Under the pieces are notes generated by a model. That model was not told where the DNA came from and made no database searches. It saw only the letters and a program-made list of their open reading frames with translations. Position numbers and translations under genes: made by a program. From positions 62,764 through 126,763 of the forward strand of contig JBAZTW010000002.1 of the NCBI GenBank assembly GCA_041661665.1: a DNA stretch of 64,000 nt. The letters are read 5' to 3'. How positions within the stretch are numbered: position 1 is the stretch's first letter; every line of letters starts with the position of its first letter. Source of the DNA: Phycisphaerae bacterium. GTDB lineage: Bacteria; Planctomycetota; Phycisphaerae; Sedimentisphaerales; UBA12454. Shown piece by piece: positions 1,176-61,023 of the stretch.

Positions 1176-1193
1176 GAGTGTAATATAAAGGCA

Positions 1194-1312
1194 ATCTCTA
1201 AAAATTGACAATCAAACATAATAAACCTTGTTTTTGACCGGTCGCTTCCGTCTTCGCTGTGCTACGCCGCGACAGGTACGCTTGCGGCTCTGATTTACGC
1301 ATTTTTAGAGAT
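1194..1312. mobile_element. MITE-like element, copy A (119 bp) with 12-bp terminal inverted repeats ATCTCTAAAAAT / ATTTTTAGAGAT
   Basis: Terminal inverted repeats read directly. The body is homologous in reverse orientation to 53367-53454 (shared TTATGTTTGATTGTCAATTTTTAGAG, GACCGGTCGCT, CAGAGCCGC). Copy A carries about 30 extra internal bases. No ORF is conserved between copies. Confidence 0.5.
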
Positions 1313-1547
1313 ACCCTAAAGGTTAGTTTTGAAATTGTTAATCATACAATACCCGCAAAAACAAGAGCAATGCAGCATGCCTGACAAACAAGCTTGGAAA
1401 TATGAGTGAAAGCGGCTATAATAAGACCAAGTTGTATAGGTGCTCAGGTGTGCCGAGCGGTAATAAAAGAGTGTGAGTGTCGTAAATCCTCTCACTTTAA
1501 CTGGTATACGCCTATCATGAACGGCATTTTATTGGGAAAAATACATC

Positions 1548-11907: not shown

Positions 11908-12144
11908 GTATTCCCTGCCGGCAATATTTTTACTTTTTGGCTTGGGCAGATAAAGATGAAATTGACGCGTCGGCCTTGGGTGAGTGCGTTTTCGACGGAA
12001 CTGCTGAAGCTTCTATGCCGCCTTATGACTGGGCATTGTTGGCTGATTTGGATAATAACGGCGCTGTAGGTTTTTCAGAAGCCGGTTTCTTCGTAGCCTT
12101 GCGAAGTATAATGGCGATGGCGGATGCCGGGGGTAATAAAAAAT

Positions 12145-12531
12145 CAGAGCCCAAGCGACAGCGCAGGGTGTTTCGTAGGGGCAGACCTATGTGTCTGCCC
12201 ACTGTCATTCCTCGAAGACCCCTTTGGGGGAGCGCAGTCGAACCAAGGCGGGAATCCATTGTATTTAGCCCCCTGGCCTGCCAGGGGGTTCATCATTCCA
12301 ATCGCATCAGAACGCAGGGTGTTTCGTAGGGGCAGACCTATGTGTCTGCCCACTGTCATTCCTCGAAGACCACTTTGGGGGAGCGCAGTCGAACCAAGGC
12401 GGGAATCCATTGTATTTAGCCCCCTGGCCTGCCAGGGGGTTCATCATTCCAACCGCATCAGAGCGTAGGGTGTTTCGTAGGGGCAAGACCTATGTGTCTG
12501 CCCACAAACAGAGCCCCAAGGGTAACGCGGG
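12145..12531. repeat. REP/BIME-like array: 151-bp composite unit x about 2.3, bounded by CAGAGCCC.AAG...GCG.GGG motifs
   Basis: GGGTGTTTCG recurs at 12166, 12317 and 12468 (period 151). Units 1 and 2 differ at about 4 positions. Each unit contains hairpins GGCAGAC-CTATGT-GTCTGCC and CCCCCTGG-CCTG-CCAGGGGG. The flanking motif 12145-12168 is the exact reverse complement of 26075-26098. Confidence 0.9.
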
Positions 12532-12544
12532 GTCATTAAATCTC

Positions 12545-12594
12545 ATCGGCCATCAGGCCGATTCCTCAATTCTTCATTCTTCAATCTTCAATTC
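12545..12594 (+). repeat. GC hairpin + pyrimidine-rich low-complexity tail module
   Basis: ATCGGCC-ATCA-GGCCGAT followed by TCCTCAATTCTTCATTCTTCAATCTTCAATTC. Same architecture as 28656-28737, 34305-34356 and 58085-58133. Confidence 0.6.
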
Positions 12595-12608
12595 TATCCC
12601 CTATTCCA

Positions 12609-12864
12609 GAATTGTTTGGTCTTTAATTCCGCCCTGCAAAAACCACTCAAAACTCACCAAAACTTGCAAAAAATCCGTAAAATCCGTGCAATCCGTGGTT
12701 AAAACTATTTAAAATTTGTCAAAACTTTACGAAATTTTTCATTTTCTTGCGCTTTTGGCAAGGGTCTATAATGTCCAGAATGTATTTTTAGCCTAAAAAA
12801 CGAGTTTATCCCCCAAAATCACTCAAAAAAAGTGTCCGAAAACGCGCAAGTTTTCAATTTTTTT
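12609..12864 (-). repeat. About 255-bp intergenic repeat, copy 1 (inverted relative to copy 2 at 28878-29130)
   Basis: The reverse complement aligns along its length with 28878-29130. Shared blocks: AAAACTTGCGC, TTCTGGA.ATTA.AGACCC, AAAAGCGCAAGAAAATG, TTAACCAC.GATT.CACGGATTT.AC.GATTTTTGCAAGTTTT. Roughly three quarters of positions match by eye. Confidence 0.8.
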
Positions 12865-24519: not shown

Positions 24520-25503
24520 ATGCAGATTATAGAAAAATTTGAAAATATCCCGACCAAAGCCAAAGGCTGCTGCCTGACAATCGGCAACTTTGACGGTGTG
24601 CATTTGGGGCATACGAAAATAATTGCCTCTGCGCATCAGACCGCAAAAAAGTTTGGCAAATGCCCTATTGCCGCGATGACTTTTGAGCCGCATCCGGCGG
24701 CGATTCTGCATCCCGAAAAAGCTATGCAGGTTTTAACGCCTTTGCCGCTGAAGCAGGCTTTGCTCGAAAAAACTGGCGTTGATTACCTGCTCGTCGTAAG
24801 GGACAGTTATAAACTTTTGTCGCTTTCGCCGGAAAATTTTGTGAACGATTTTTTAGTTAAAACAATCGCTCCTAAAGCTGTCATTGAGGGAGGCAATTTC
24901 CATTTTGGCTATGGTCGCAGCGGCAACGCCGGGGTTCTCGCGACGCTTGGCAGAGAGCGGGGGTTCGATGTTGTTATCGTTGACGATGTGGAAATAGATT
25001 TCGGTACAGGCCCCACAAAAGTTTCAAGCACGCTTATTCGTCTTATGCTCCAGAGCGGCAACGCCTCGCAGGCCGCGATGGCTCTGGGCAGGCCTTACAG
25101 ATTGATGGGAAAGGTTGTAAAGGGCAGAGGCAAAGGAACGGAACTCGGCTTTCCGACCGCAAACATCGAGCCGCACGACCAGATAATACCCGCAGAGGGT
25201 GTCTACGCCGGTTTTGTTTCGGTGGCAGATAGTGTTGAAAAACTTTGTATGGCCCAGCAGAAAATTCCTGCCGTTTTTAGTCTTGGCAGGGCAAAGACGT
25301 TTATTTCTGACCATCCGCTGCTGATTGAGGCGCATTTGCTTGACGGCGGCGGCGAAAATCTTTACGATAAATTTTTAGCGCTCGATTTCGTTGATTTTAT
25401 CCGCGGCCAGAGACGTTTTGAAACGGAAGAAAAACTGAAGGAACAAATTAAACAGGATTGTGCTATTGCCGCCAACAGAGCCTGGAGCGAAAGCGACAGG
25501 TGA
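24520..25503 (+). CDS. ribF: Bifunctional riboflavin kinase / FMN adenylyltransferase
   Basis: 327 aa. GNFDGVHLGH nucleotidyltransferase motif and C-terminal kinase PTAN / GVY motifs. The last 10 codons lie inside the RAYT-flanking repeat. Confidence 0.9.
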   Translation: MQIIEKFENIPTKAKGCCLTIGNFDGVHLGHTKIIASAHQTAKKFGKCPIAAMTFEPHPAAILHPEKAMQVLTPLPLKQALLEKTGVDYLLVVRDSYKLLSLSPENFVNDFLVKTIAPKAVIEGGNFHFGYGRSGNAGVLATLGRERGFDVVIVDDVEIDFGTGPTKVSSTLIRLMLQSGNASQAAMALGRPYRLMGKVVKGRGKGTELGFPTANIEPHDQIIPAEGVYAGFVSVADSVEKLCMAQQKIPAVFSLGRAKTFISDHPLLIEAHLLDGGGENLYDKFLALDFVDFIRGQRRFETEEKLKEQIKQDCAIAANRAWSESDR

Positions 25504-25515
25504 AATTCTCCCTGC
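25473..25515 (+). repeat. RAYT-flanking direct repeat, left copy
   Basis: CAACAGAGCCTGGAGCGAAAGCGACAGGTGAAATTCTCCCTGC versus 26041-26080. Identical except one A/G difference and a 3-nt indel. Confidence 0.9.
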
Positions 25516-25547
25516 TGAACGATTCACAATTTGAGAGAAAGTTATAT

Positions 25548-26099
25548 ATGGATTATCCATTGGCGTATTTGATAACTTTTACGACCTATGGCGTGTGGTT
25601 GCACGGCGATATTCGCGGCAGTGTTGATAAGGAACATAACAAGTATGGAGACGATTTTTTGCCGCGAACGGAGAGTTTTGAAAGACAGGATCGCAAATTT
25701 CTGAAAAATGATGCGGTTTTACTTGCCGAAAATGATAGGAACATCGTGCTTAATGCCATTCTTAGCCAATGTAGTTTTAGAGGCTGGTTTGCCTATGCGA
25801 TTCATGTCAGAAGCAATCATATTCATATTGTTGTTTCGGCCGCGGAAAAGCCTGAAAAGATAATGTCCACTTTTAAATCTTATTCAACCAGAGCATTGCG
25901 AGCATCTGGTATTAACAGGTTGAAATTTTGGACTGTACACGGAAGCACACGGTATTTGTGGGATAAAGAAAAACTTGAAAAGGCGATAAAATATGTTAGA
26001 GATGAACAGGGCAAAATGATGGCCTATGGAAATTCAAAGACAACAGAGCCTGGAGCGAAAGCGACGGGTGTTCTCCCTGCGCTGTCGCTTGGGCTCTGA
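25548..26099 (+). mobile_element. REP-associated tyrosine transposase (RAYT; IS200/IS605 TnpA-like HUH Y1 enzyme)
   Basis: 184 aa from ATG at 25548. YLITFTTYG start, HUH motif SNHIHIVV, downstream Tyr in KSYSTRAL. Flanked by direct repeats and a REP hairpin. The track ORF start (25458) overlaps ribF and is rejected. Confidence 0.7.
26041..26098 (+). repeat. RAYT-flanking direct repeat, right copy, extended into an imperfect REP hairpin
   Basis: CAGAGCC..AAGCGAC pairs with GTCGCTTGGGCTCTG. The 24-nt core 26075-26098 is the exact reverse complement of 12145-12168. Confidence 0.9.
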
Positions 26100-26125
26100 A
26101 TGCTGAACTTATAAAAAGGAATTTA

Positions 26126-27124
26126 ATGACAACAACTGACGGTTTTAAAAAAGCGATTGATTTAATAAATAAGTCTCATAGCTGGCTGATTACCTCTCAC
26201 ACCCGGCCGGACGGCGATGCTGTCGGCTGTATGAAAAGTTTTTACGATTTGGCGGCTCAATTAGGCAAAAAGGCGCAGCCGATTTTGCTTTCTCTGCCGG
26301 CGAAATGGTATCAATCCATATTCGATGAGCCTGTGCCTGTCCTTGGCAACGATATAAAAATCGAAGATTTAAAAACCGAGCGGTTTGACCTCATTATAAT
26401 TGTCGATACCAATAGTTATATTCAGTTGACGGAATTTGATAAATGGCTCAAAAAGTCGAAGATTCCCGTGCTTGTGGTAGACCATCATCTCAGCGGCGAC
26501 GGACTTGGCGATGTTGAGATTATCGACCCAGCCGCCGCGGCGACAGGCGAAATAGTATTCGACCTTTTCAAATACGCAGGCTGGAAAATCACGCCGGCCA
26601 TTGCGGAGGCTTTGTTTGTTGCGATTTCAACCGATACAGGCTGGTTCAGATTTGACAACACCGACAGCAGAGTAATGAATAACGCCGCTGAACTGATTGG
26701 GCTGGGAGTTAAGGTTTCGGATGTTTATCATAAAATGTTTCAGAATTATTCGCCCGCCAGGCTTAAACTCCTCGGCAAAATGCTCGAAACTCTCGAATTG
26801 TACTGCGATGGTAAAATCGCGTTGCAATTCATTATGCGGGCTGATTTCGACGCGGCAGGGGCGATTGGAAGCGATACCGAGGAATTCGTCAACGAATGCC
26901 AAAAGATAAATACTATCGAGGCGGCGGCTCTATTCGTGGAATTAAAGGACGGCGGATTCAGATGTTCGCTGCGAAGCAACGGCTCAATTGATGTTCGCCA
27001 AATCGCCCAAAAATTCGGCGGCGGCGGACACAGGGTCGCGGCAGGCGTAAATCTCAATGGCCCGCTCGATACCGCAAAAAAAATGATTCTCGACGAACTT
27101 AAAAAAACGATGAACGTAGTATAG
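26126..27124 (+). CDS. nrnA: DHH/DHHA1 phosphoesterase, NrnA-like oligoribonuclease/pAp phosphatase
   Basis: 332 aa. HTRPDGDAVGC, VDTN, VVDHH and C-terminal GGGH motifs. Confidence 0.85.
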   Translation: MTTTDGFKKAIDLINKSHSWLITSHTRPDGDAVGCMKSFYDLAAQLGKKAQPILLSLPAKWYQSIFDEPVPVLGNDIKIEDLKTERFDLIIIVDTNSYIQLTEFDKWLKKSKIPVLVVDHHLSGDGLGDVEIIDPAAAATGEIVFDLFKYAGWKITPAIAEALFVAISTDTGWFRFDNTDSRVMNNAAELIGLGVKVSDVYHKMFQNYSPARLKLLGKMLETLELYCDGKIALQFIMRADFDAAGAIGSDTEEFVNECQKINTIEAAALFVELKDGGFRCSLRSNGSIDVRQIAQKFGGGGHRVAAGVNLNGPLDTAKKMILDELKKTMNVV

Positions 27125-27208: not shown

Positions 27209-27398
27209 AGGGTAAGTACAAACGAGTCTTAATTGGGGTTGGGAAGTAACATCATTTTCTTAGTTTAAACAACTGCGGATTTTTCTGCACAGATTATTTA
27301 TTGGGGTGTCCCGTTATAAAAATGACGGGTCTGAACATCTAAAATTGGGGTAATAACCTATTGCGATATAGAGATACTATGCGCACTGACAGATTTAT

Positions 27399-27423
27399 GT
27401 CATTCCCGCGAAGGCGGGAATCC
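27399..27423. repeat. REP-type hairpin GTCATTCCCGC-GAAG-GCGGGAATCC
   Basis: 8-bp perfect stem ATTCCCGC/GCGGGAAT. The same element occurs in reverse orientation inside hypF at 41523-41546. Confidence 0.85.
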
Positions 27424-28655: not shown

Positions 28656-28737
28656 TCTCGGCCGCCTGTCATGAGCTTGTCGAATGATGAGGCCGAAACC
28701 TTGATTTTGATTTTTAATCTTTGATTTTTGATATTTA
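28656..28737 (+). terminator. GC hairpin + T-rich low-complexity tail directly after the PEP-CTERM stop (terminator-like repeat module)
   Basis: TCTCGGCC...GGCCGA stem arms, then AACCTTGATTTTGATTTTTAATCTTTGATTTTTGATATTT. The AAAATAGTCTCGGC lead-in is shared with 34297-34310. Confidence 0.45.
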
Positions 28738-28874: not shown

Positions 28875-28877
28875 AAA

Positions 28878-29130
28878 AAAATAAAAACTTGCGCATTTTC
28901 AGCCACCTTTTTAAGAGGAGTTTTGGTAAAAAAGTTTGTTTACAAGTTAAAAACCGCTTCTGGATATTAAAGACCCGTAGAAAAAGCGCAAGAAAATGGA
29001 AAAATTTCGCAAATTTCTTCAAAAAAAGTCAAATTTCGAACGACTTTAACCACAGATTACACGGATTTCACAGATTTTTGCAAGTTTTGAATGATTTTTA
29101 GAGGGTGAAATTGACGACTAAACAATTCGT
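28878..29130 (+). repeat. About 255-bp intergenic repeat, copy 2
   Basis: Aligns with the reverse complement of 12609-12864 (see that feature). Indels and a stop codon in copy 1 argue against coding. Confidence 0.8.
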
Positions 29131-34256: not shown

Positions 34257-34356
34257 ATTGAAGAATGAAGATTGTAGATTGAAGATTTTTAATTTTAAAA
34301 TAGTCTCGGCACAGCCGAAGCCACAAATCTTCATTTTTCAATCTTCAATTTTCATT
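34257..34356. repeat. Long imperfect palindrome: purine-rich low-complexity arm, central GC hairpin, pyrimidine-rich arm (terminator-like after nadC)
   Basis: Left arm ATTGAAGAATGAAGATTGTAGATTGAAGATTT. Centre TCGGC-ACA-GCCGA (34306-34318). Right arm AAATCTTCATTTTTCAATCTTCAATTTTCATT. Confidence 0.7.
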
Positions 34357-40322: not shown

Positions 40323-42770
40323 ATGAGAAAAAAAATACAATTATGCGGACAGGTGCAGGGCATCGGGTTTCGGCCATACGTTTATAAACTGGCGAAGGAG
40401 CTTGGCCTGACAGGCATAGTCTATAATCACAGCGAGGGGGCGGCAATTGAAGTCCAGGGCGAAAAGAAAAACATCGATGAATTTATCTCAAGATTAAAAC
40501 TGGCGGAAAAAAGCGATTTGCCGCTGCTGAAAATTATCTCGATGGAAATTTCAGATATTGCCTTAAAAAGCGAAAACACTTTCGAGATTAAGCAAAGTCA
40601 AACCGCAGGGGCGGCAAGGGCGGAAATTACGCCTGATATGGCTATCTGCAAAGATTGTCTGCGCGAGCTTTTTGACAAGAATGATTTTCGCTATCGCTAT
40701 CCATTTATCAACTGCACAAACTGCGGCCCTCGCTATTCGATAATCAAAACCATACCATACGACAGACCGAACACAACAATGTCCGCATTCAAACTGTGCG
40801 ACAAATGCAATGGGCAATATGGCAATCCCGCGGACAGACGATTCCACGCCCAGCCTGTCGCCTGCGCGGTTTGCGGGCCTAAGATAAAGCTATGCGATAA
40901 TAAAGGCAGCACAATTGAAGCTGACTCCGATTCGGCGATTAGAAAAACGGCGGAATTATTGGCTGCCGGCAAAATAGCGGCAATCAAAGGGCTTGGCGGA
41001 TACCATTTAGCCTGCGACGCTGAAAATGATGATGCGGTCAAATTGCTAAGAACCCGCAAAATGCGAGATTATAAACCGTTTGCGATTATGGCAGGGAGCG
41101 TCGATATAATTCGTAAGTTCGCCTGTGTGGATGAGATTTCAGAGAAAGTTCTTAAGAGCATTCAGTCGCCGATTGTGCTATTGCCTAAAAAAACGCCGAA
41201 CACAATCGCGGCATCCGTCGCGGCGGGCGTGAACACGTTCGGTTTTATGCTGCCTTATACGCCTTTGCATTATTTGCTTTTTGCCGAGAAAAAATTTGAT
41301 TGCCTGATTATGACCAGCGGCAATGTTTCCGATGAACCGCTGATTTGCAAAGACCAGCAGGCTTTTGAAAAATTAGCTGATATTGCTGATGTTTTTTTGA
41401 TTCACGACAGGGAAATTTACAGGCAGGTTGACGATTCGGTTGTGCATATTGTCAAAAACGAACCTGTGCCCCTTCGCCGGTCGAGGGGTTTTGTTCCGCA
41501 GACATTTGTTTTGAAAGGGATAGATTCCCGCCTGCGCGGGAATGACAAAGAGATTGCCGCGTCGTCCCGAAGCGGAACTCCTCGCAATGACATATTTGCC
41601 GCGGGGGCGGATTTGAAAAATACTTTCTGCCTTGCGAAGCAAAATCGTTTTGCCGTCAGCGAGCATATAGGCGATTTAGCTGATTCCAATGTTTATAAAC
41701 ACTGGATAGACTCCATTGGGCATTTAAAAAAACTGCTTGATATTGAGCCGGAAGTCTTCGCCTGCGACCTGCACCCAAACTATTTTACAAGCCAATACAC
41801 AAGAAAAATCTCAAAGGGCAAAAAACTCATCGAAATTCAGCATCATTGGGCGCATATCGCATCGGTGATTGCCGAGCATAATATAGCCGACAGTGTAATC
41901 GGCCTTGTCGCTGATGGCACAGGCTTCGGCACGGATGGGGCTGTCTGGGGATGCGAATGTCTTATCGCTTCATTAACGGAGTTTAAGCGTTTTGGGCATT
42001 TGGCGTATTATCCTCTTGGCGGCGGCGATTCGGCCGCAAAGCAGGCAATCAGGCCTCTGTTGGGACTGGCGGCAAAATACAATTTAACTATTCCACAGGA
42101 TATTCTGGAATCCATTGAATCGGACGGCGAAAAAATAAATATTATAAAAACGCAGTTGGAAAAAAATATCAATACCGTCCAGACATCGAGCTTGGGCAGA
42201 TTGTTTGACGCTGTCGCGGCAGTTTGCGGACTTGGCGGCAAAAATAATTTTGAAGCTGAATTGCCGATGGCACTTGAAGCCGCCGCGGACAAAAACATCA
42301 AAGATTATTATACGTTTGAACTGATAAATGGCGAAATTCAAATAGGGAAAATGCTCGAAGAAATTTTAACAGATACAAAAAAGTTGTCATTTCGACCGGA
42401 ATTCGTCCCGAAAATCGGGACGAATGAAGCGGAGAAATCTGTTTTAAATAGATTTCTCGATTCCGGCGACAAAGTCGCCTCCACTCGAAATGACAGGGCT
42501 GAAGCATATTCTAATGTGGGCACAATTTCCGCGAAATTCCATAACACCATCGCGCAATTTTTTCTCACTCTGGCCAAATCCGCAAAAGAACAGACCGGTA
42601 TAAACATCGTTGCGGTGAGCGGGGGGGTATTTTGCAACAGATTTTTGCTTGCTCGGCTGATTGAGCTTTTGGAGGCAAACGGGTTTGAGGTTTTTTATAA
42701 TCGGCTTGTGCCGGCAAACGATGGCGGAATCTCGTTAGGCCAGGCAGCGATAGCGGCAAACAGAGAATAA
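40323..42770 (+). CDS. hypF: [NiFe]-hydrogenase maturation carbamoyltransferase HypF
   Basis: 815 aa. Acylphosphatase domain (GQVQGIGFRPYVY), two Zn-finger pairs (CKDC...CTNCGPR, CDKC...CAVCGP), YrdC-like and Kae1-like domains. Contains two in-frame palindromic-element segments. Confidence 0.9.
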   Translation: MRKKIQLCGQVQGIGFRPYVYKLAKELGLTGIVYNHSEGAAIEVQGEKKNIDEFISRLKLAEKSDLPLLKIISMEISDIALKSENTFEIKQSQTAGAARAEITPDMAICKDCLRELFDKNDFRYRYPFINCTNCGPRYSIIKTIPYDRPNTTMSAFKLCDKCNGQYGNPADRRFHAQPVACAVCGPKIKLCDNKGSTIEADSDSAIRKTAELLAAGKIAAIKGLGGYHLACDAENDDAVKLLRTRKMRDYKPFAIMAGSVDIIRKFACVDEISEKVLKSIQSPIVLLPKKTPNTIAASVAAGVNTFGFMLPYTPLHYLLFAEKKFDCLIMTSGNVSDEPLICKDQQAFEKLADIADVFLIHDREIYRQVDDSVVHIVKNEPVPLRRSRGFVPQTFVLKGIDSRLRGNDKEIAASSRSGTPRNDIFAAGADLKNTFCLAKQNRFAVSEHIGDLADSNVYKHWIDSIGHLKKLLDIEPEVFACDLHPNYFTSQYTRKISKGKKLIEIQHHWAHIASVIAEHNIADSVIGLVADGTGFGTDGAVWGCECLIASLTEFKRFGHLAYYPLGGGDSAAKQAIRPLLGLAAKYNLTIPQDILESIESDGEKINIIKTQLEKNINTVQTSSLGRLFDAVAAVCGLGGKNNFEAELPMALEAAADKNIKDYYTFELINGEIQIGKMLEEILTDTKKLSFRPEFVPKIGTNEAEKSVLNRFLDSGDKVASTRNDRAEAYSNVGTISAKFHNTIAQFFLTLAKSAKEQTGINIVAVSGGVFCNRFLLARLIELLEANGFEVFYNRLVPANDGGISLGQAAIAANRE
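41523..41591. repeat. Palindromic REP-like segment 1 inside hypF (in frame)
   Basis: GATTCCCGC-CTGC-GCGGGAATGAC is the near-exact reverse complement of 27399-27423. It is followed by GAGATTGCCGCG...CTCGCAATGAC. Encodes DSRLRGNDKEIAASSRSGTPRND. Confidence 0.75.
42386..42494. repeat. Nested palindromic MITE/REP-like segment 2 inside hypF (in frame)
   Basis: Outer inverted repeats GTCATTTCGA/TCGAAATGAC and CCGGAAT/ATTCCGG. Inner perfect stems ATTCGTCCCGA/TCGGGACGAAT, GAGAAATCT/AGATTTCTC and GGCGAC/GTCGCC. Confidence 0.75.
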
Positions 42771-47421: not shown

Positions 47422-48816
47422 ATGAACGAAGACAAAAAGAATATTCTCAAGTGGCGAAAAAAAAATTCCTATTACTATCGGTGGATTGAGAAAATTCACA
47501 AATTCGTCATAAGGCCGAACAGCAGAGTTTTGCAAATCGGCTGCGAAACCGGTGAATTGCTGGCAGGGGTTAATCCATCTTATGGTCTTGGCATTGATGC
47601 CGATGCCGCAAAAATCGCCGTTGCCAAAGAACAGTTTGGTCATTTGAATTTTCAGGTTGCCGACCCGCATCAGTTCACAATCGATGAAAAATTTGATTAT
47701 GTGATTATCTGTAATTCGCTTGGCGGCTGGCACGATGTGCAGAAAGTTTTTGAAAATATCCGCCCAGCCGCGACTCCGGATACGCGGATTATCATCGCGT
47801 ATTATAATTATCTGTGGGAGTTTGCCCTTGAGCTTGGCTCGCTGCTTAAAATAAGAAGGCCTTATGAGTATCAAAACTGGCTTTCGCAAAACGATATAGT
47901 GAATTTGCTCGATTTGGCGGGCTTTGAATCCATAAGGCAGAATTCATTTATGCTGCTGCCAAAGCGAATTTGGCCGATTACGTCAATTTTCAATTATTTT
48001 CTAACGCTGCTGCCGGGCTTTAGATGTTTTAACCTCATCAATCTGATAATAGCCAGACCTATTCCGCCGCAAAAACCGCAAAACGAACTTTCAGTTTCGG
48101 TTATTGTTCCCTGCAGAAACGAAAAGGGCAACATCGCCGATGCGATATTGCGAATTCCGCCGATGGGCAGAGAAACCGAAATAATTTTTGTCGATGGCAG
48201 CAGCAGCGACGGCACTGTTGAGGAAATAGAAAAACAAATCGCTTACCACCCCGAAAGAAAAATCAAACTGATTCATCAGGGCGATGGAATCGGCAAAGGC
48301 GATGCCGTTCGCAAAGGATTTGCCGCAGCCGCCGGCGATGTGCTTGTGATTCAGGATGCCGACTTAACCGCTCCGCCGGAGGATTTGCCGAAATTTTTCA
48401 AGGCAATCTGCGATGGCAAAGGAGAGTATATCAACGGCTCTCGGCTTGTTTATCCAATGGAAAAGCAGGCGATGAGATTTCTGAACCTGCTCGGCAACAA
48501 ATTTTTCAGTATGCTGTTCACCTGGCTGCTTGGTCAGAAATTCAAAGATACCCTCTGCGGAACGAAAATGATTAGCCGAAAAAATTACGAGCTTATCGCA
48601 GCAAATCGTTCGTATTTCGGCGAGTTTGACCCGTTTGGCGATTTCGATTTGATTTTCGGCGCTGTCAGGCAGAACCTGAAAGTTGTCGAAGTTCCGGTTA
48701 ATTATAAGGCCAGAACTTATGGCGAAACAAACATCAGCAGATTTAGACACGGTTGGCTGCTGCTGAAAATGAGCTGGATTGCGTTTAAAAAAATTAAATG
48801 GCTGGGTAAATATTGA
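47422..48816 (+). CDS. Fusion protein: class I SAM-dependent methyltransferase + DPM1/ArnC/GtrB-type family-2 glycosyltransferase
   Basis: N-terminal VLQIGCETGELL motif I. C-terminal VSVIVPCRNE, VDGSSSDGT, IQDADLT (DxD) and a C-terminal amphipathic/TM tail. Confidence 0.75.
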   Translation: MNEDKKNILKWRKKNSYYYRWIEKIHKFVIRPNSRVLQIGCETGELLAGVNPSYGLGIDADAAKIAVAKEQFGHLNFQVADPHQFTIDEKFDYVIICNSLGGWHDVQKVFENIRPAATPDTRIIIAYYNYLWEFALELGSLLKIRRPYEYQNWLSQNDIVNLLDLAGFESIRQNSFMLLPKRIWPITSIFNYFLTLLPGFRCFNLINLIIARPIPPQKPQNELSVSVIVPCRNEKGNIADAILRIPPMGRETEIIFVDGSSSDGTVEEIEKQIAYHPERKIKLIHQGDGIGKGDAVRKGFAAAAGDVLVIQDADLTAPPEDLPKFFKAICDGKGEYINGSRLVYPMEKQAMRFLNLLGNKFFSMLFTWLLGQKFKDTLCGTKMISRKNYELIAANRSYFGEFDPFGDFDLIFGAVRQNLKVVEVPVNYKARTYGETNISRFRHGWLLLKMSWIAFKKIKWLGKY

Positions 48817-49589
48817 AGTTTTTAAAAATTGCAAAGCATAAGGATTCGGCTGAACTTGATATGCCTGAAACAACGATTCGGCATTGTCAGATTATTCAGC
48901 AAAAGCGGTTTCTTAAAAACATATATGTCGATTTTTACAGCCGATTCAAAAAAGCGTTCGGCAATCCTGAAAATAAACGCCTTGTCGAACTTGGCAGCGG
49001 CGGCGGCTTTATAAAAGAAATTATCCCAAACGCAATTACCTCTGATGTAATAAAAGTGCCCGGCGTTGATATGTCCTTTTCAGCAGAGCAAATGCCATTT
49101 GAGAATGGAAGCGTTGATGCGTTTTTTATGTTCGATGTGCTGCATCATATTCCAAATCCGAGGCTGTTTTTCAGAGAAGCCTGCCGATGTCTCAGACCCG
49201 GCGGCAAAATAGTTATGATTGAGCCTGCCAATACTTTATGGGGGCGTTTCATATACAAAAATTTTCATCACGAGGCGTTTGATGAAAAAGCCGGCTGGCA
49301 AATGGAATCGACTGGCCCGCTTTCCAGTGCCAATGGCGCTGTTCCATGGATAATTTTTAATCGCGACAGAAAAATTTTTGAAAATGAATTTCCTGAATTG
49401 CAGATTTTGAAAATTTCGTTTCATACGCCGCTGCGGTATTTGATTAGCGGAGGGCTTACTTTGCGTCAACTGCTTCCGGGTTGTTGCTATGGGTTAGTGG
49501 CGGGATTGGAATGGCTGCTTTCACCGGCTAACAATATTTTGGGGATGTTTCAGACTATTGAGATTGAGAAAAGACACAACAGAGGTTAA
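48813..49589 (+). CDS. Class I SAM-dependent methyltransferase
   Basis: LVELGSGGGF motif I and LRPGGKIVMIEP. The TTG start overlaps the previous stop; ATG at 48861 is an alternative. Confidence 0.7.
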   Translation: MKFLKIAKHKDSAELDMPETTIRHCQIIQQKRFLKNIYVDFYSRFKKAFGNPENKRLVELGSGGGFIKEIIPNAITSDVIKVPGVDMSFSAEQMPFENGSVDAFFMFDVLHHIPNPRLFFREACRCLRPGGKIVMIEPANTLWGRFIYKNFHHEAFDEKAGWQMESTGPLSSANGAVPWIIFNRDRKIFENEFPELQILKISFHTPLRYLISGGLTLRQLLPGCCYGLVAGLEWLLSPANNILGMFQTIEIEKRHNRG

Positions 49590-49651
49590 TTTAACGATAT
49601 AGACATGTATAAAAGAATAAAAAAACAATATTTAAGAAAGTTGGAAGTCCT

Positions 49652-50506
49652 ATGATTGGATTGATTGATAGATTGGCCATAACACGAATTAAGCTGTTTT
49701 TTGCCCGGATACTTTATTGTCTGATACATCTAATATATCGCAAAGACAAACGTATTATCACTAGGAATGGAATTACTTATGAAATTGATTTATCGGAATG
49801 TGTCGATTTATCCATTTTTTTATTGGGCCATTTCCAAAAACATGTTTCTAATAATAAACGTCTCTCTTTGTCTGAGAATGCAATAATTTTTGATGTGGGG
49901 GCGAATATAGGGGCCATGGCTCTGCAATTTGCCAAACAGTCCCCATTGGGAAGAGTATATGCATTTGAGCCTACTTTTTATGCCTTCGCAAAGCTGAAAA
50001 GAAATCTTGCACTAAATCCTGAACTTGCGAATAGAATTGTTGCAATTCAAAGTTTTGTCTCCTCGGAAACGTCGGGTGAAGCTAATATAAAGGCGTATGC
50101 AAGTTGGAAAGTAGGAGGTTCTGACGATAGCGGCAAGCACTTGATTCACGGAGGAACCGTAAAGCCTGCCCAGGGGATAGGGGCGATATCTCTCGATGAT
50201 TTCTGTGAACAGAACAACATCGAGAAGCTGGACTTTATCAAAATAGATACCGATGGACACGAATTGGAGGTTTTAAAAGGAGCACAGAAAATTATTGGAA
50301 AGTTCAAGCCTGCTATCATTTTTGAAATCGGAATATACCTATTGCAGGAAAGAGGCGTTGATTTTTCAGACTATTTAAAATTTTTCGCATCCTTAAACTA
50401 TTGTTTATTAAACTGCGATAGCCTCAGGGAAATAACTGCGGATAATTATCGCAGGCATGTTCCATTAAATAGAACAAGTGATATTTTGGCAGTCGCCAAT
50501 ACTTGA
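49652..50506 (+). CDS. FkbM-family methyltransferase
   Basis: IFDVGANIGAM and IKIDTDGHELEVLKGA, characteristic of FkbM-type methyltransferases. Confidence 0.8.
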   Translation: MIGLIDRLAITRIKLFFARILYCLIHLIYRKDKRIITRNGITYEIDLSECVDLSIFLLGHFQKHVSNNKRLSLSENAIIFDVGANIGAMALQFAKQSPLGRVYAFEPTFYAFAKLKRNLALNPELANRIVAIQSFVSSETSGEANIKAYASWKVGGSDDSGKHLIHGGTVKPAQGIGAISLDDFCEQNNIEKLDFIKIDTDGHELEVLKGAQKIIGKFKPAIIFEIGIYLLQERGVDFSDYLKFFASLNYCLLNCDSLREITADNYRRHVPLNRTSDILAVANT

Positions 50507-50524
50507 AAATCAAAAGGGTTAATA

Positions 50525-52318
50525 ATGGCTGTGCAAAAAGGAATTAAAATTCGCCGAAGGCATAAAAAGCCAGCGAATGAAAACTCTATTCAGATAGTTT
50601 CTCCTGAAATTATAGCGCAACGTGAAAAATACTTCGGTATTTTAACCATTGTCGTTCTTTTTGCCTTTGGCGTTTACCACTCAATTCTTTATTTCGGTCA
50701 TACGGCTGTCCCCAATTCGGATTTTCCTGCCTTTTTCTCTACCGGCCGGCAGCTTTTATCTTTTCACATCCCATCAAGTTTTAAGCGTGTTCCGGTTCTT
50801 GGGATTTTGCAAGTTCTTCTTTCCTGGATCATCGGCGGCCAACATCCCGGCTTGACAGCCGGTTGGCTGCTGAATGCGATATTGCATCCGTTCAATCTTA
50901 TCCTGCTGTGGCTCATCTGTAGAAAGTTCGTAGGTAAATCGGGCTTGTGGATTGCAATAATTGCAATACTCAATCCAATGGTTATTTATCTGCTGACTGA
51001 ACCGATAGTAGAAACTACATTTTTATTTTTTATACTTTTGACTTTCTATTTTATTCTGAAAAATTCCCGGTGGAGTTATCTTTTTGCATCAATCGCAACG
51101 ATGACTCGTTACGAAGGCGCAGCTCTTATTCTTGCGGCTTTTATAATCGATATGATAAACAGCAAAACAAAACAGGAACGATTCCGAATTTTCCTCTATT
51201 CAGCATTGGCGGCGACACCCGTGGCAATTTGGATGGTCGGTATTTTGATGACCCCGCATGCAGAATCGTATTTAACTGTTTATGGAAAAGAGTATGCCAA
51301 ATTGTATGCGCAACCGGAAGAAAGCAGAACTGGTTTTTTTATGAATTTAGGCGTGTTATGGGAAACAGGATTTCAACCTCTGCTGATACCTTTTTTCAGC
51401 GATAACAGCGAAGACATAAATATGGTTTGGGGATTGAGTAAATTTTTTGCGATTATGGGGTTTGCTTTTGGTTCGATTTATGGACTATTCAAACGCCGAT
51501 GGGAAGTGCTCGCTTTGCTCATATTTCTGATATCATATTTTGCGATTCATTTAAAATTTCCTGTTCAGTATTCGCGATACTATATGCCGATTTCCTGGGT
51601 CGCACTTTTACTGTGTTGGTTCGGCTTGCAAAACATCTGGAACCTGCTGAATAAAAACAGGCGTATCCCTAAGCCGATTATATTCCTCTTACAGGCAATT
51701 ATTTTGACAATTACTATTATATGGCTGATCAGCCTTCCTCTATCGTTGCCGAAATTAACTCCTGCCAGCGCCGTATCCGTTTCAATGCCGTATGTTGCAA
51801 TTGTGGTCGTGTTACTTTTGCTTGCCGGACGTACTTATATTTATAAAATTAAAAACATATTTTCTCAGGTGGTTATTCTTGCGGTATTGGGGCTTATTAT
51901 CGCATCGAATCAATTTATACTCGCTCCCACGCTTGGTAACGGCCAAAGAGATATAGAGTTCAAACTTCTGGGGAATTGGTACGTTGCAAATGCTAAACCC
52001 GGCGAAAAAATGGGGCTTTTTTTGTCACATGTGGTACAGATATATGCGCCTAAATACGCCGACAATCTTGTTTACCTGCCCACTTCCGATAACCCTGTGA
52101 ATTTTGTAAAGGCCTGCTACGATGCAAACATCACTTATGTCGTCTGGGCATCACGCGAAGGATTGAGTAGGGATGCCAGCTACCATCAGACGAATTTAGA
52201 TAAAAACATAGCTATGCTTCGCGAACCAAAGAGTATCGGCCCGTATGAGTATATAACAACTATTAAGGCAAACCAATACCGCTATGTTAATATTTTTAGA
52301 CTCAAGCCTCGGCCATAA
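50525..52318 (+). CDS. Large polytopic membrane protein, GT-C/ArnT-PMT-like glycosyltransferase candidate
   Basis: 597 aa with 12 or more hydrophobic segments and a soluble C-terminal part of about 130 aa. The GT-C assignment is inferred from topology and context (adjacent polyprenyl-phosphate-type GT2). Confidence 0.4.
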   Translation: MAVQKGIKIRRRHKKPANENSIQIVSPEIIAQREKYFGILTIVVLFAFGVYHSILYFGHTAVPNSDFPAFFSTGRQLLSFHIPSSFKRVPVLGILQVLLSWIIGGQHPGLTAGWLLNAILHPFNLILLWLICRKFVGKSGLWIAIIAILNPMVIYLLTEPIVETTFLFFILLTFYFILKNSRWSYLFASIATMTRYEGAALILAAFIIDMINSKTKQERFRIFLYSALAATPVAIWMVGILMTPHAESYLTVYGKEYAKLYAQPEESRTGFFMNLGVLWETGFQPLLIPFFSDNSEDINMVWGLSKFFAIMGFAFGSIYGLFKRRWEVLALLIFLISYFAIHLKFPVQYSRYYMPISWVALLLCWFGLQNIWNLLNKNRRIPKPIIFLLQAIILTITIIWLISLPLSLPKLTPASAVSVSMPYVAIVVVLLLLAGRTYIYKIKNIFSQVVILAVLGLIIASNQFILAPTLGNGQRDIEFKLLGNWYVANAKPGEKMGLFLSHVVQIYAPKYADNLVYLPTSDNPVNFVKACYDANITYVVWASREGLSRDASYHQTNLDKNIAMLREPKSIGPYEYITTIKANQYRYVNIFRLKPRP

Positions 52319-52329
52319 ATCACAAAAAA

Positions 52330-52351
52330 GGGCGGGGTTATAACCCCGCCC
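52330..52351 (-). terminator. Perfect 22-bp palindrome terminator between convergent genes
   Basis: GGGCGGGGTTA/TAACCCCGCCC, preceded by A6 on the + strand. This is a T6 run after the hairpin for the minus-strand PEP-CTERM gene. Confidence 0.7.
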
Positions 52352-52377
52352 ATAATATAAATATATCATGACCGTTT

Positions 52378-53073
52378 TTAGCCGCGTCTTCTAAGCATCA
52401 TACCACCTATAAAAAGTAGTCCCAGCGTCGCAGGCTCCGGTACCGCGAAAATATAATTGAATCTTGAATCTTTTGCGACTATCTCACCAGCAAAACCAGA
52501 CATAGGACTCAGTACAGAAGGGTCCATTGCATACAACCTGTTTACACCGGCAACACAGGGATGACTTGAGAAGCTCGTTACAGATGCGCTGCCTATGCCT
52601 ACATAAGCATCAGTCATCGAAATATTATATGAGTTGAGCAGAATACTCGCTTCTGAGGCTCCCCAACTCCAACCTCCCACATACATAACATTGCCGCCCG
52701 AATTTGCATAATCACGCATTTTGGAACCTAAGCCCGCACCTGCCCAGAGCCAAACGACAGCAGAATAACTGCTCAAGTCTGATGATATCCAGTTCTGGGG
52801 GTCAGAAATGGTGACGGTATAACCGGCACTTTGAAGCGATTGCAGTAAATTTGAGCCAGTTAGCTGACGATCATAGTAGGCTTTGTCAAAAAGAATTGAT
52901 TTGTTGGAAGAATCGGCCGTGAGCCAGTTAAGCGAACTTACGGCGAAATGCTGATAATCCTGTGAGCTGGACGTAAGCATCCAGTCATCGGCAACCGCGA
53001 CAAGCTTCCCTGCGGCAAATGCGGAACTGCCAAACACTGATACAAAAACTAAACTCCACAATACGTTTTTCAT
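52378..53073 (-). CDS. PEP-CTERM sorting-domain protein
   Basis: Signal peptide MKNVLWSLVFVSVFGSSAFA. C-terminal VPEPATLGLLFIGGMMLRRRG. Confidence 0.85.
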   Translation of the reverse strand: MKNVLWSLVFVSVFGSSAFAAGKLVAVADDWMLTSSSQDYQHFAVSSLNWLTADSSNKSILFDKAYYDRQLTGSNLLQSLQSAGYTVTISDPQNWISSDLSSYSAVVWLWAGAGLGSKMRDYANSGGNVMYVGGWSWGASEASILLNSYNISMTDAYVGIGSASVTSFSSHPCVAGVNRLYAMDPSVLSPMSGFAGEIVAKDSRFNYIFAVPEPATLGLLFIGGMMLRRRG

Positions 53074-53107
53074 GTTCTCCCTTCCAAAAATAGTTTATGG
53101 TTATTAA

Positions 53108-53125
53108 TTAGTGTACATACACTAA
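53108..53125. promoter_or_regulatory. Operator-like palindrome TTAGTGTA-CA-TACACTAA upstream of the PEP-CTERM gene
   Basis: 8-bp perfect inverted repeat 35-52 nt upstream of the start at 53073. Further hairpins lie at 53146-53181 and 53235-53273. Confidence 0.3.
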
Positions 53126-53366
53126 CATCACAGATTTAATTTAGAGGAGAGAATTCAAACGGCATGATATGTATTCTCTCCGCCTCCAAGTGGTAATTAT
53201 AGATTACTTTCTATCTGATTGCAACTATTTTTTCGGACTTTTGTGAAAAAAATTGGATTTTTCACAATCCGAAACAGTCAATCTATCAAGCAGACAAGCC
53301 AAGCAGCCTGATATGCCTGACTGCGGCAGGGCGGCAGCTATTGCGGTAAGGGTATCCTTAAGGCAA

Positions 53367-53454
53367 CCTCTAAAAATGCGTAAATTCAGAGCCGCGAGCG
53401 TAAGCGACCGGTCAAAAACAACGTCTATTATGTTTGATTGTCAATTTTTAGAGG
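53367..53454. mobile_element. MITE-like element, copy B (88 bp) with terminal inverted repeats CCTCTAAAAAT / ATTTTTAGAGG
   Basis: Homologous to the reverse complement of 1194-1312. Ends 5 nt from the dapA stop codon. Confidence 0.5.
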
Positions 53455-53459
53455 CATCC

Positions 53460-54332: not shown

Positions 54333-54344
54333 TTTACAAACTCC

Positions 54345-57724: not shown

Positions 57725-57780
57725 TTTTCTTTAAAAGTGGTTGTTTTGCCTGTACTATGCCCCCGCAGCGAGGTGCCAGT

Positions 57781-60920: not shown

Positions 60921-61023
60921 AGGACAAAGGAGGCAAAGAGGTAAGGAATCAAGGATTTTACAGAGCCGCGACAGTACTATAGCGGTAAATCCTTATTTCT
61001 TTACATCTTTATTTCCTTATTTT
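60921..61023. repeat. Imperfect long palindrome of purine-rich and pyrimidine-rich low-complexity arms directly upstream of tRNA-Thr
   Basis: Left arm AGGACAAAGGAGGCAAAGAGGTAAGGAATCAAGGATTT. Centre contains CAGAGCCGCGACAG and a CCGC..GCGG stem. Right arm AAATCCTTATTTCTTTACATCTTTATTTCCTTATTTT. Confidence 0.65.

What the first reader, a model, noticed from the sequence alone, without database searches (positions are those of the whole stretch)
25473..26098. RAYT-type HUH transposase flanked by direct repeats that also supply the 3' ends of ribF and of the transposase gene
Seen in sequence:
- ORF 25548-26099 has an HUH motif (SNHIHIVV) and a downstream Tyr (KSYSTRAL).
- An about 40-bp sequence CAACAGAGCCTGGAGCGAAAGCGAC(A/G)GGTG..TTCTCCCTGC occurs on both sides (25473-25515 and 26041-26080).
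- The left copy encodes the last 10 codons and the stop of ribF. The right copy encodes the last about 19 codons of the transposase.
- The right copy continues into GCTGTCGCTTGGGCTCTG, forming an imperfect hairpin.
- Its 24-nt core (26075-26098) is the exact reverse complement of 12145-12168 at the edge of the 151-bp tandem array.

Established knowledge: RAYTs are usually single-copy, domesticated Y1 transposases. They are flanked by, and thought to mobilise, REP/REPIN sequences.

Inference: this gene is the likely driver of at least one of the hairpin families that saturate the intergenic DNA of this window. Repeat DNA has been co-opted as C-terminal coding sequence of two genes.
Basis: partly seen in the sequence, partly recalled or inferred. 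Interest (0 to 1): 0.55.

Follow-up and report, generated by a model that had tools for sequence, protein, structure and literature searches.

The report
Hairpin-repeat (REP) transposase gene beside ribF
This is an intact gene for a small single-strand-DNA cutting enzyme (a "class 3" HUH/tyrosine transposase) surrounded by copies of the short hairpin repeat it most likely recognises; this kind of system was described in 2018, so it is a well-preserved new example rather than a new kind of element.

Summary
ORF 25548-26099 (183 aa) is a Y1 HUH protein by three tests: it passes the Pfam Y1_Tnp cut-off, its top 30 PDB fold matches are all IS200/IS608/ISDra2 or TnpA-REP, and HUH (H91/H93) and Y149-x4-Q154 are conserved. 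It is flanked by near-identical copies of a ~28-nt hairpin unit, CAGAG-[4 bp]-GA-NN-GNNA-NN-GA-[4 bp]. The right copy pairs with an inverted partner to form a doublet (-18.7 kcal/mol).

The unit is a dispersed REP family. A covariance model finds about 8 copies in the window. A degenerate 25-mer hits at least 119 places in Planctomycetota and Acidobacteriota genomes, and only 1 of these lies next to a homologous gene. Convergent doublets dominate (26 vs 5).

Protein motifs, the CnGA(G) foot and the hairpin layout match the "class 3 TnpA-Y1" of Quentin et al. 2018. The system therefore works like a RAYT but is not a canonical (class 2) RAYT.

- The catalytic Tyr is Y149, not Y112.
- The repeat-encoded tails of RibF and of the transposase are incidental. 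Homologues read the same DNA in all three frames.

Added here:
- The gene has co-diverged with ribF and nrnA at this site (Mantel r about 0.8).
- The flanking 27-mer is identical across four genomes.

The parts
24520..25503 (+). ribF (bifunctional riboflavin kinase/FAD synthetase). The last 9 codons (NRAWSESDR) and the stop are encoded by the left REP copy.
   Evidence: Pfam FAD_syn and Flavokinase; NCBIfam PRK05627.1-3 at 309 bits against a cut-off of 295. Models end at residues 318-319 of 327. Relatives have other tails.
25473..25504 (+). Left REP unit, in direct orientation: CAGAG foot, CCTG/CAGG stem, GA-GC-GAAA-GC-GA core.
   Evidence: Covariance model R1, 43 bits, E 7e-7 (seed sequence). 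ssDNA fold -4.3 kcal/mol with the model structure.
25505..25520 (+). Remnant of the spacer and of the inverted partner (ATTCTCCCTGC then TGAAC). Compared with the right-hand doublet, about 23 nt are missing between two TGC triplets.
   Evidence: Direct reading. Both copies share TTCTCCCTGC and the following TGAAC.
25548..26099 (+). Class 3 Y1 HUH transposase gene (183 aa): HUH H91-I-H93, W128-T129, Y149-VRDE-Q154. Residues 165-183 are encoded by the REP doublet.
   Evidence: Pfam Y1_Tnp 27.4 bits (cut-off 23). Invariant residues in 28 homologues. AF2 core pLDDT >90, tail <35. Foldseek top 30 hits are all IS200/ISDra2/IS608 TnpA or 4ER8.
26041..26072 (+). Right REP unit. It starts 14 nt after codon 160, the position typical of the family.
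   Evidence: R1 39.9 bits (seed). In 71 metagenome loci the first downstream REP most often starts 13-16 nt after codon 160.
26071..26101 (-). Inverted REP partner (variant AA..GC type). It contains the transposase stop codon and forms a REPIN-like doublet with 26041-26072.
   Evidence: R1 35.8 bits. Doublet fold -18.7 kcal/mol, z -5.4. Exact reverse complement of 12144-12168.
26126..27124 (+). DHH/DHHA1 phosphoesterase (NrnA-like), the conserved downstream neighbour.
   Evidence: Pfam DHH and DHHA1. Downstream of the Y1 gene in 17 of 32 testable metagenome loci.
12142..12172 (+). Dispersed REP copy (AA..GC type) at the left edge of the 151-bp tandem array.
   Evidence: R1 37.9 bits (seed). 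ssDNA fold -5.4 kcal/mol.
12506..12536 (+). Dispersed REP copy at the right edge of the 151-bp array. It was not in the seed alignment.
   Evidence: R1 30.9 bits, E 2e-4.
53384..53415 (+). Dispersed REP copy inside a ~115-nt repeated intergenic element.
   Evidence: R1 40.9 bits (seed). Repeat families D2, I2 and I3.
60958..60989 (+). Dispersed, degenerate REP copy upstream of a tRNA gene. It was not in the seed alignment.
   Evidence: R1 22.2 bits, E 0.013. Sequence ACAGAGCCGCGACAGTACTATAGCGGTAAA.
1263..1295 (-). Weak REP copy whose loop is interrupted by a 29-nt insertion. It is the counterpart of 53384-53415.
   Evidence: R1 17.1 bits, E 0.14. Sequence; repeat I2/I3.

Best explanation
The locus is a 'REPtron' of the class 3 Y1 HUH family: a single, vertically inherited gene for a small HUH/tyrosine single-strand-DNA endonuclease, together with copies of its cognate repeat.

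The repeat unit is about 28 nt:
- a 5' foot, CAGAG;
- a 4-bp stem of variable sequence that covaries;
- a conserved core, GA-NN-GNNA-NN-GA, read as tandem G.A pairs, a 2-bp stem and a tetraloop.

One unit sits upstream of the gene. Another begins 14 nt after codon 160, so the ORF runs into it and stops inside its inverted partner.

Proposed mechanism, inferred by analogy with IS608/ISDra2 TnpA and E. coli TnpA-REP: the protein binds the folded hairpin on single-stranded DNA, for example at the replication fork. The foot helps select the cleavage site. H91, H93 and Q154 hold a divalent metal, and Y149 forms a 5'-phosphotyrosine link. In this way REP singlets or convergent doublets are cut and rejoined, which spreads them to other intergenic sites.

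Shown here: family membership, fold and motifs, the hairpin with covariation, dispersal away from the gene, the excess of convergent doublets, the fixed position of the 3' REP, co-divergence with ribF and nrnA, and the strong conservation of the gene-flanking REP.

Inferred only: binding, cleavage and mobilisation.

The repeat-encoded tails of RibF and of the transposase are by-products of ORFs running into the repeat.
For: Protein:
- Pfam Y1_Tnp above its gathering score.
- HUH, W128, Y149 and Q154-G155 are invariant or nearly so in 28 homologues.
- The AF2 core is confident. All 30 best PDB fold matches are IS200/IS605 TnpAs or TnpA-REP 4ER8.

Repeat:
- In the 18-sequence alignment 93% of cells pair and 5 of 6 pairs show changes on both sides.
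- In 142 pattern-fetched instances the unconstrained stem positions form Watson-Crick pairs in 87% and 69% of cases. CG and GC are both common.

Dispersal:
- 8 model hits in the window, 3 of them not in the seed alignment.
Only 1 has a homologous gene nearby.
- Convergent doublets 26, against 5 divergent and 8 tandem pairs; 0 instances in shuffled sequence.

Association with the gene:
- 51 of 71 metagenome loci have a + strand REP at the 3' end of the gene, most often starting 13-16 nt after codon 160.
- The C-terminal tails of homologues are the same DNA read in three frames.

Domestication:
- ribF-Y1-DHH synteny in L001 and L010-13 and in 35 of 54 metagenome loci with at least 49% identity.
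- Mantel r 0.82 (RibF) and 0.78 (DHH), p 0.001.
- Identical proteins always sit in one genomic context.
- The 27-nt flanking REP is identical in 8 of 9 copies from four genomes, while third codon positions of their genes are 41-61% identical.

Literature: class 3 motifs, the CnGA foot and listed REPs with the same .....((((..((....))..)))). layout (PMC6006769).
Against: - The searched literature holds no biochemistry for any class 3 protein. Cleavage and mobilisation are by analogy only.
- Single REP hairpins are thermodynamically weak with standard DNA parameters: -2 to -5 kcal/mol, and z is not significant for several.
- In metagenome loci most model hits cluster within 500 nt of the gene. 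Only 6 lie further away, in 212 kb.
- G.T and A.C mismatches in the stems show no strand asymmetry.
- The NCBIfam IS200 and RAYT cut-offs are far from met.
- Positions 3-4 of the Y motif (R-D) differ from the published class 3 consensus.
- The genome-wide copy numbers of the gene and of the REP in the source organism are unknown. Only 64 kb was available.
Confidence: 0.82

Rival explanations
1. An ordinary, currently mobile IS200/IS605-type insertion sequence (left-end hairpin, tnpA, right-end hairpin) that inserted between ribF and the DHH gene.
For: In the window both flanking hairpin units lie on the same strand, as the left and right ends of IS608 do. Quentin et al. note that class 3 'resembles both IS and REPtrons' and that Solibacter has three close copies.
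Against: - The gene occupies the same ribF|DHH site in loci whose RibF and DHH proteins are only 44-72% identical, and it co-diverges with them.
- Identical proteins occur in a single context over 23, 4 and 8 contigs.
- Family-wide the nearest upstream unit is usually inverted (31 vs 13).
- The repeat is dispersed without the gene.
- NCBIfam transpos_IS200 scores 22.8 bits against a cut-off of 55.
Confidence: 0.06
2. The repeats are host cis-elements (mRNA-stabilising or regulatory hairpins, or binding sites). The protein is a domesticated REP-binding factor that no longer moves DNA, and copies spread by other means.
For: - The gene and the flanking 27-mer are conserved like housekeeping sequence.
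- The core (tandem GA plus a GNNA loop) would also make a stable RNA motif.
- ribF, the Y1 gene and the DHH gene are tightly packed on one strand, and promoter- and terminator-like sites in the region are no more numerous than in shuffled sequence.
Against: - The catalytic HUH, Y149 and Q154 are conserved across more than 500 homologues. That is unexpected for a pure binding protein.
- The excess of convergent doublets and the arrays are the known signature of REPIN-type replication.
- No Rfam family matches.
Confidence: 0.15
3. A chance similarity or an assembly artefact: the two copies and the 25-nt inverted match mean nothing.
For: None beyond the short length of the units.
Against: Shuffles give 0.00 expected matches. 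The same architecture recurs in independent assemblies from NCBI, ENA and JGI.
Confidence: 0.01

Closest known systems
Class 3 TnpA-Y1 (Quentin, Siguier, Chandler & Fichant 2018, BMC Genomics 19:475; PMC6006769)
   Same: - HUH of the NH[VI]H type, W-T, and a Y-x4-Q motif; about 180 aa with an extended conserved N-terminus.
- Planctomycetes and Acidobacteria hosts.
- Genes flanked by weak 'atypical' hairpins with a 5' CnGA foot.
- Published REPs (for example CAGAGCCGCGACCGTTAGGGAGCG and CCGAGCCGCGACCGTAAGGGAGCGGA) have the same foot / 4 bp / GA / 2 bp / GNNA / 2 bp / GA / 4 bp layout.
   Different: - Positions 3-4 of the Y motif are R/K-D/N here instead of [VI][AENY].
- The paper left open whether class 3 is IS-like or domesticated. 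In this clade the gene is fixed at ribF|nrnA and co-diverges with its neighbours.
- The fixed start of the 3' REP just after codon 160, and the repeat-encoded ORF tails, are not mentioned in the class 3 section of the paper that I read.
RAYT / TnpA-REP with REP and REPIN (class 2; E. coli YafM, PDB 4ER8; Nunvar 2010; Bertels & Rainey 2011)
   Same: - A single, vertically inherited Y1 HUH gene flanked by its own palindromic repeat.
- The repeat is dispersed in intergenic DNA, often as convergent inverted doublets and arrays.
- The fold matches 4ER8.
   Different: - The foot is CAGAG, not GT[AG]G.
- The Y motif is YVxxxQ, not YIxxNP.
- The NCBIfam RAYT model scores 21.9 bits against a cut-off of 80.
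- The hairpin is short and interrupted by non-canonical G.A pairs.
- The repeat sequence is recognisable across phyla, whereas class 2 REPs are generally treated as lineage-specific (my own knowledge).
IS200/IS605 TnpA (IS608, ISDra2, IS200)
   Same: These are the best fold matches. The Y-to-Q type motif is related to class 1. The hairpins on both sides lie on the same strand in this window.
   Different: No sign of multiple copies or varying contexts. No tnpB. NCBIfam IS200 scores 22.8 bits against a cut-off of 55. The hairpin repeat is dispersed independently of the gene.

Membership tests
Y1 HUH transposase superfamily (Pfam PF01797) | Profile match above the curated cut-off | tested here: met
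   27.4 bits against a gathering score of 23, E 4e-6, covering residues 58-129 only.
Y1 HUH transposase superfamily (Pfam PF01797) | HUH motif plus one catalytic Tyr on a C-terminal helix about 58-67 residues later, with a polar Q/N nearby | tested here: met
   H91-I-H93. Y149 and Q154 are invariant in 28 homologues. Y149 lies 58 residues after H91, on helix 140-152.
Y1 HUH transposase superfamily (Pfam PF01797) | TnpA fold | tested here: met
   The 30 best Foldseek PDB hits are all IS200, ISDra2, IS608 or Sulfolobus TnpA, or 4ER8 (E 7e-5 to 7e-3; TM about 0.6 on the target length). A sequence-only profile search of the PDB found nothing.
Y1 HUH transposase superfamily (Pfam PF01797) | Cleavage of single-stranded DNA through a 5'-phosphotyrosine intermediate | not testable with these tools
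   Needs biochemistry.
Class 3 TnpA-Y1 (Quentin et al. 2018) | Signature motifs NHVH, W[TA] and YV[VI][AENY]EQ (Y----Q); length about 178 aa; extended N-terminal conservation | tested here: met
   NHIH at 90-93, W128-T129, Y149-V-R-D-E-Q154, 183 aa. The N-terminal YLITFTTYGxWLHG is invariant (against Table 1 quoted). Positions 3-4 of the Y motif deviate.
Class 3 TnpA-Y1 (Quentin et al. 2018) | Gene flanked by atypical, weak hairpins with a 5' CnGA foot, which can be numerous in the genome | tested here: met
   CAGA(G) foot and the same dot-bracket layout as their Table S1. Weak folds. Dispersed copies.
Class 3 TnpA-Y1 (Quentin et al. 2018) | Match to the authors' class 3 HMM, or direct similarity to their listed proteins (ABJ83664, ADG69454, ABQ56422) | not tested
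RAYT / TnpA-REP (class 2) | Profile match (NCBIfam NF047646 REP_Tyr_transpos) | tested here: not met
   21.9 bits against a cut-off of 80.
RAYT / TnpA-REP (class 2) | REP with a GT[AG]G foot, and a YIxxNP Tyr motif | tested here: not met
   The foot is CAGAG and the motif is YVRDEQ.
RAYT / TnpA-REP (class 2) | Single copy, vertically inherited, flanked by REPs that also occur dispersed and as inverted doublets | tested here: met
   Synteny and Mantel test. One context per identical protein. Dispersal and doublets. Copy number in the source genome itself could not be tested; only one copy is present in 64 kb.
IS200/IS605 insertion sequence | Profile match (NCBIfam NF033573 transpos_IS200) | tested here: not met
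   22.8 bits against a cut-off of 55.
IS200/IS605 insertion sequence | Several near-identical copies in different genomic contexts | tested here: not met
   One copy in the window. Identical proteins always have the same neighbours. The site is conserved across deep divergence.

The most novel reading that the evidence does not exclude
In this Phycisphaerae/Sedimentisphaerales-like clade the class 3 gene and its REPs may be a host-retained (domesticated) system rather than a selfish one.

Observations behind this reading:
- The gene has stayed between ribF and nrnA while those housekeeping proteins diverged to about 45-50% identity.
- It evolves at about the same rate as they do.
- Its flanking 27-nt REP is identical across four genomes.
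- The 3' REP is built into the end of the ORF at a fixed offset.

This would settle, for one clade, the question left open in 2018 of whether class 3 is IS-like or REPtron-like. It would also suggest a cis role of the REP or of the protein in the ribF-nrnA transcription unit. The cross-phylum conservation of the REP core (tandem G.A plus a GNNA loop) would make class 3 an unusually tractable model for how Y1 enzymes recognise hairpins.
Probability: 0.35. Interest if true: 0.5.

Novelty: new member of a known kind. Interest (0 to 1): 0.32.

Why it matters
Class 3 Y1 HUH proteins have been described only by comparative genomics, in a small sample: 24 proteins after the authors enlarged the class. 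I found no experimental work on them. This locus and its more than 500 relatives add the following:
- a clear consensus for the cognate repeat;
- a usable covariance model;
- evidence for long-term vertical inheritance at one chromosomal site;
- evidence that the gene-flanking repeat is under stronger constraint than the gene itself.

There is also a practical point for annotation. ORFs next to these repeats gain spurious N- or C-terminal extensions:
- RibF gains 9 residues.
- The transposase gains 19.
- The JGI and NCBI gene calls for the transposase and its L001 homologue start inside or upstream of the left repeat.
- Repeat arrays generate false ORFs of 100 to 130 aa.

Tried and rejected
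1. A profile of the 28 homologues searched against PDB sequences gave no hit. Only the fold search linked the protein to the TnpA structures.
2. A look-up of the JGI gene call P0001 to recover the source contig found no record. Genome-wide counts for the source organism were therefore not possible.
3. Identity of each locus to the window alone showed no correlation between the Y1 gene and its neighbours (Spearman about -0.1). That comparison is star-like and uninformative. The all-against-all Mantel test replaced it.
4. I looked for strand asymmetry of G.T against A.C mismatches in the stems, as a sign of strand-specific folding. There is none: 7 against 11 at one pair, 0 against 3 at the other.
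5. Strand bias of REPs relative to GC skew: 6 of 8 copies lie on the G-rich + strand. The sample is too small to mean anything.
6. Rfam has no family matching the hairpin.
7. Promoter- and terminator-like sites around the three genes are not more frequent than in shuffled sequence.
8. The idea that the repeat-encoded tails are functional protein segments was rejected. Three reading frames are used among homologues, RibF relatives have different tails or none, and pLDDT is below 35.
9. Caveat on the seed alignment: 12 of the 18 seeds were picked by a scan that required pairing. The covariation count is therefore biased. The unbiased test is.
Full report
**Observation**

The region reads as the first-stage reader described it. 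ribF (24520-25503), a 183-aa ORF (25548-26099) and a DHH/DHHA1 gene (26126-27124) lie head to tail on the + strand.

A 30-nt stretch at 25473-25502 recurs at 26041-26070 with one difference. After a 3-nt indel both copies continue into TTCTCCCTGC. The exact 22-mer CAGAGCCTGGAGCGAAAGCGAC occurs only at these two places, with a 3-mismatch relative at 53387. Shuffled sequence gives 0.00 expected matches.

The right copy runs into an imperfect inverted partner. As single-stranded DNA, 26041-26101 folds at -18.7 kcal/mol (z = -5.4). 26075-26099 is the exact reverse complement of 12144-12168.

The left copy encodes RibF residues 319-327 and the stop. The right doublet encodes residues 165-183 of the ORF and its stop.

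**The protein**

- Pfam Y1_Tnp is passed narrowly: 27.4 bits against a gathering score of 23.
- The NCBIfam IS200 and RAYT models score about equally and far below their cut-offs: 22.8 against 55, and 21.9 against 80.
- More than 500 homologues exist. The named ones come from Planctomycetota, Phycisphaerae and Sedimentisphaerales.
- In an alignment of 28 homologues the invariant or nearly invariant residues include N90, H91, H93, W128, Y149 and Q154-G155. The N-terminal YLITFTTYGxWLHG block is also strongly conserved.
- An AlphaFold model has a confident core: residues 61-160 are mostly above pLDDT 90. The strand and helix order is that of IS200/IS605 TnpA. The tail, residues 166-183, is unstructured with pLDDT below 35.
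- The 30 best PDB fold matches are all IS200, ISDra2, IS608 or Sulfolobus TnpA, or the E. coli REP-associated transposase 4ER8.
- The catalytic candidate is Y149, 58 residues after H91, on helix 140-152.

**The repeat**

I compared the flanks of the gene in the window and in four other lineages (L001, L002, L008, L010). This showed one unit of about 28 nt: CAGAG, a 4-bp stem, GA, 2 bp, a GNNA-type tetraloop, 2 bp, GA, the 3' half of the stem, then usually T.

In an 18-sequence alignment 93% of cells pair, and 5 of the 6 pairs show changes on both sides. Twelve of those seeds had been picked by a scan that required pairing, so this count is biased.

The unbiased test is the genome scan. The pattern CAGAGCCNNRAGCGNNAGCGMNNGG leaves the two inner stem pairs free. 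In the 142 instances fetched, those pairs are Watson-Crick in 87% and 69% of cases, and CG and GC are both common.

Single units are weak hairpins with standard DNA parameters, at -2 to -5 kcal/mol. Doublets are strong.

**Dispersal**

A covariance model built from the alignment finds eight copies in the window:
- three at the gene;
- two bracketing the 151-bp tandem array (12142 and 12506; the latter was not a seed, E 2e-4);
- one at 53384;
- one upstream of a tRNA gene (60958, E 0.013);
- one weak, interrupted copy at 1263.

All are intergenic or at the 3' ends of genes.

Most hosts are Planctomycetota of several classes or Acidobacteriota, with a few others. Only one of those 119 stretches carries a homologue of the gene, so the repeat is dispersed away from the gene.

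Among adjacent pairs of copies, convergent (+ then -) doublets number 26. Divergent pairs number 5 and tandem pairs 8. The same heuristic finds nothing in shuffled sequence. This is the REPIN-type arrangement, and it is the one seen at 26041-26101.

**Architecture across the family**

In 74 metagenome loci searched with the model, 51 of the 71 with enough downstream sequence have a + strand unit at the 3' end of the gene. Its start is most often 13-16 nt after codon 160. In the window the offset is 14.

The nearest upstream unit is inverted in 31 loci and direct in 13. The window's direct layout is therefore the minority form. It is shared with L001, L145 and L171.

The ORFs run into the repeat, so the C-terminal tails of homologues are the same DNA read in all three frames: TEPGAKATG..LSLGL, QSLERKRQ and RAWSESDR.

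RibF behaves the same way:
- the window has NRAWSESDR;
- L145 has TEPGAKATGGN;
- in L171 the stop lies just before the repeat;
- other relatives end after the conserved ..KDCxKAxxIL with unrelated short tails.

The repeat-encoded tails are therefore incidental, not co-opted.

**Inheritance**

The order ribF, Y1 gene, DHH gene recurs in several places:
- in L001 (77% identity; a 233-aa ORF is inserted there together with a duplicated ribF 3' end);
- in L010-13 (53% identity; a BrnT/CopG pair is inserted there);
- in 35 of the 54 metagenome loci with at least 49% identity, and in none of the 20 more distant ones.

All-against-all distances of the Y1 proteins correlate with those of RibF (Mantel r 0.82, n = 23, p 0.001). 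They also correlate with those of the DHH protein (r 0.78, n = 22, p 0.001). The distance ranges are similar, up to about 0.5.

Identical proteins from other lineages always sit in a single context: 23, 4 and 8 contigs.

The 27-mer AACAGAGCCTGGAGCGAAAGCGACAGG is identical in 8 of 9 gene-flanking copies from four genomes. The third codon positions of their genes are only 41-61% identical.

Together these results argue for a resident, selected gene with a constrained cognate site, not for a mobile IS.

**Comparison with what is known**

Quentin et al. 2018 (PMC6006769) split Y1 HUH proteins into three classes: class 1 (IS200/IS605), class 2 (TnpA-REP, or RAYT) and a small new class 3. They describe class 3 as follows:
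- motifs NHVH, W[TA] and YV[VI][AENY]EQ;
- length about 178 aa;
- mainly in Planctomycetes, Acidobacteria and some Proteobacteria;
- about 600 copies of the structure in Solibacter usitatus;
- 'resemble both IS and REPtrons'.

Their Table S1 lists class 3 repeats such as CAGAGCCGCGACCGTTAGGGAGCG and CCGAGCCGCGACCGTAAGGGAGCGGA, with the layout .....((((..((....))..)))).. This is the layout of my model.

The window gene is thus a class 3 member. It works like a RAYT but fails the class 2 membership tests. I found no later experimental work on class 3.

**Mechanism and rivals**

The most likely mechanism is by analogy with IS608/ISDra2 TnpA and TnpA-REP. The hairpin is recognised on single-stranded DNA. 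H91, H93 and Q154 bind a divalent metal. Y149 forms a covalent 5'-phosphotyrosine link. REP singlets or doublets are cut and rejoined. This part is inferred, not shown.

- An active IS is unlikely, given the synteny, the co-divergence and the single context per protein.
- A purely regulatory, non-catalytic role cannot be excluded, but it fits poorly with the conserved catalytic residues.
- Chance is excluded.

**Verdict**

The finding is real, correctly spotted and largely correctly interpreted, but it belongs to a family already described. What this analysis adds for this clade:
- the fixed offset of the 3' repeat;
- the three-frame tails;
- the co-divergence with ribF and nrnA;
- the identity of the flanking 27-mer across four genomes.

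These are modest extensions. Interest 0.32; novelty: new member of a known kind.

Noticed in passing
window 12162-12505: The 151-bp tandem array (2.3 copies, 97% matches) is a mosaic of other hairpins. It contains a GTAG-footed palindrome (GTAGGGGCAGACCTATGTGTCTGCCCAC, the canonical class 2 REP type), an ATTCC..GGGAATCC hairpin and CCCCCTGGCCTGCCAGGGGG. Each unit starts with a class 3 REP that lacks its middle (TCAGA[G/A]CG[C/T]AGGGTG), and full class 3 REPs bracket the array. It looks like a BIME-type array. The mechanical ORF list gives false ORFs of 100-130 aa across it (11937-12329, 12124-12468, 12410-12712). No class 2 RAYT gene was searched for.
   Followed up: partly
window 27398-27422 and 41523-41547: A 25-nt palindromic unit, TGTCATTCCCGCGAAGGCGGGAATC, occurs twice in opposite orientation (96% complementary), with related copies inside the 151-bp array. 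It is a separate hairpin family, unrelated to the CAGAG repeat.
   Followed up: no
window 1179-1325 (-) and 53353-53470 (+): A repeated intergenic element of about 115-145 nt. Its ends are inverted (CTCTAAAAATGCGTAAA ... GTCAATTTTTAGAG) and a class 3 REP sits in the middle. In the 1263-1295 copy the REP loop is split by a 29-nt insertion. It is MITE-like.
   Followed up: partly
window 12715-12863 vs 28875-29023; also 12557-12593 / 34314-34350 and 28691-28729 / 58095-58133: Further AT-rich intergenic repeats: a 149-nt inverted pair at 70% complementarity, and GGCCGA..TTGATTTTT-type direct repeats. Their nature is unknown.
   Followed up: no
window 48000-64000: GC skew is about +0.10 over the first 48 kb. 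It then falls to +0.02 and to -0.11 in the last 8 kb, where most long ORFs lie on the - strand. This may be a replication landmark or only a strand effect of the genes.
   Followed up: no
L001 5260-6075; L010 6598-7213: The REP-flanked site has taken up other genes in relatives. L001 has a 233-aa ORF of unknown function, inserted together with a duplicated ribF 3' end. L010-13 have a BrnT/CopG toxin-antitoxin pair between the Y1 gene and the DHH gene.
   Followed up: partly
L181 456-626 and 1187-1539: Arrays of alternating + and - REP units with a 91-nt period lie on both sides of a homologous gene. L140, L182 and L136 have three tandem + units with a period of 37-40 nt after the gene.
   Followed up: no
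window 25500-25547; L001 6001-6081: Public gene calls for this protein and for its L001 homologue start too early. The JGI call has 199 aa and would start at GTG 25500, inside the left REP. The NCBI call for the L001 homologue has 211 aa and reads through its left REP. The conserved N-terminus starts at ATG 25548.
   Followed up: yes
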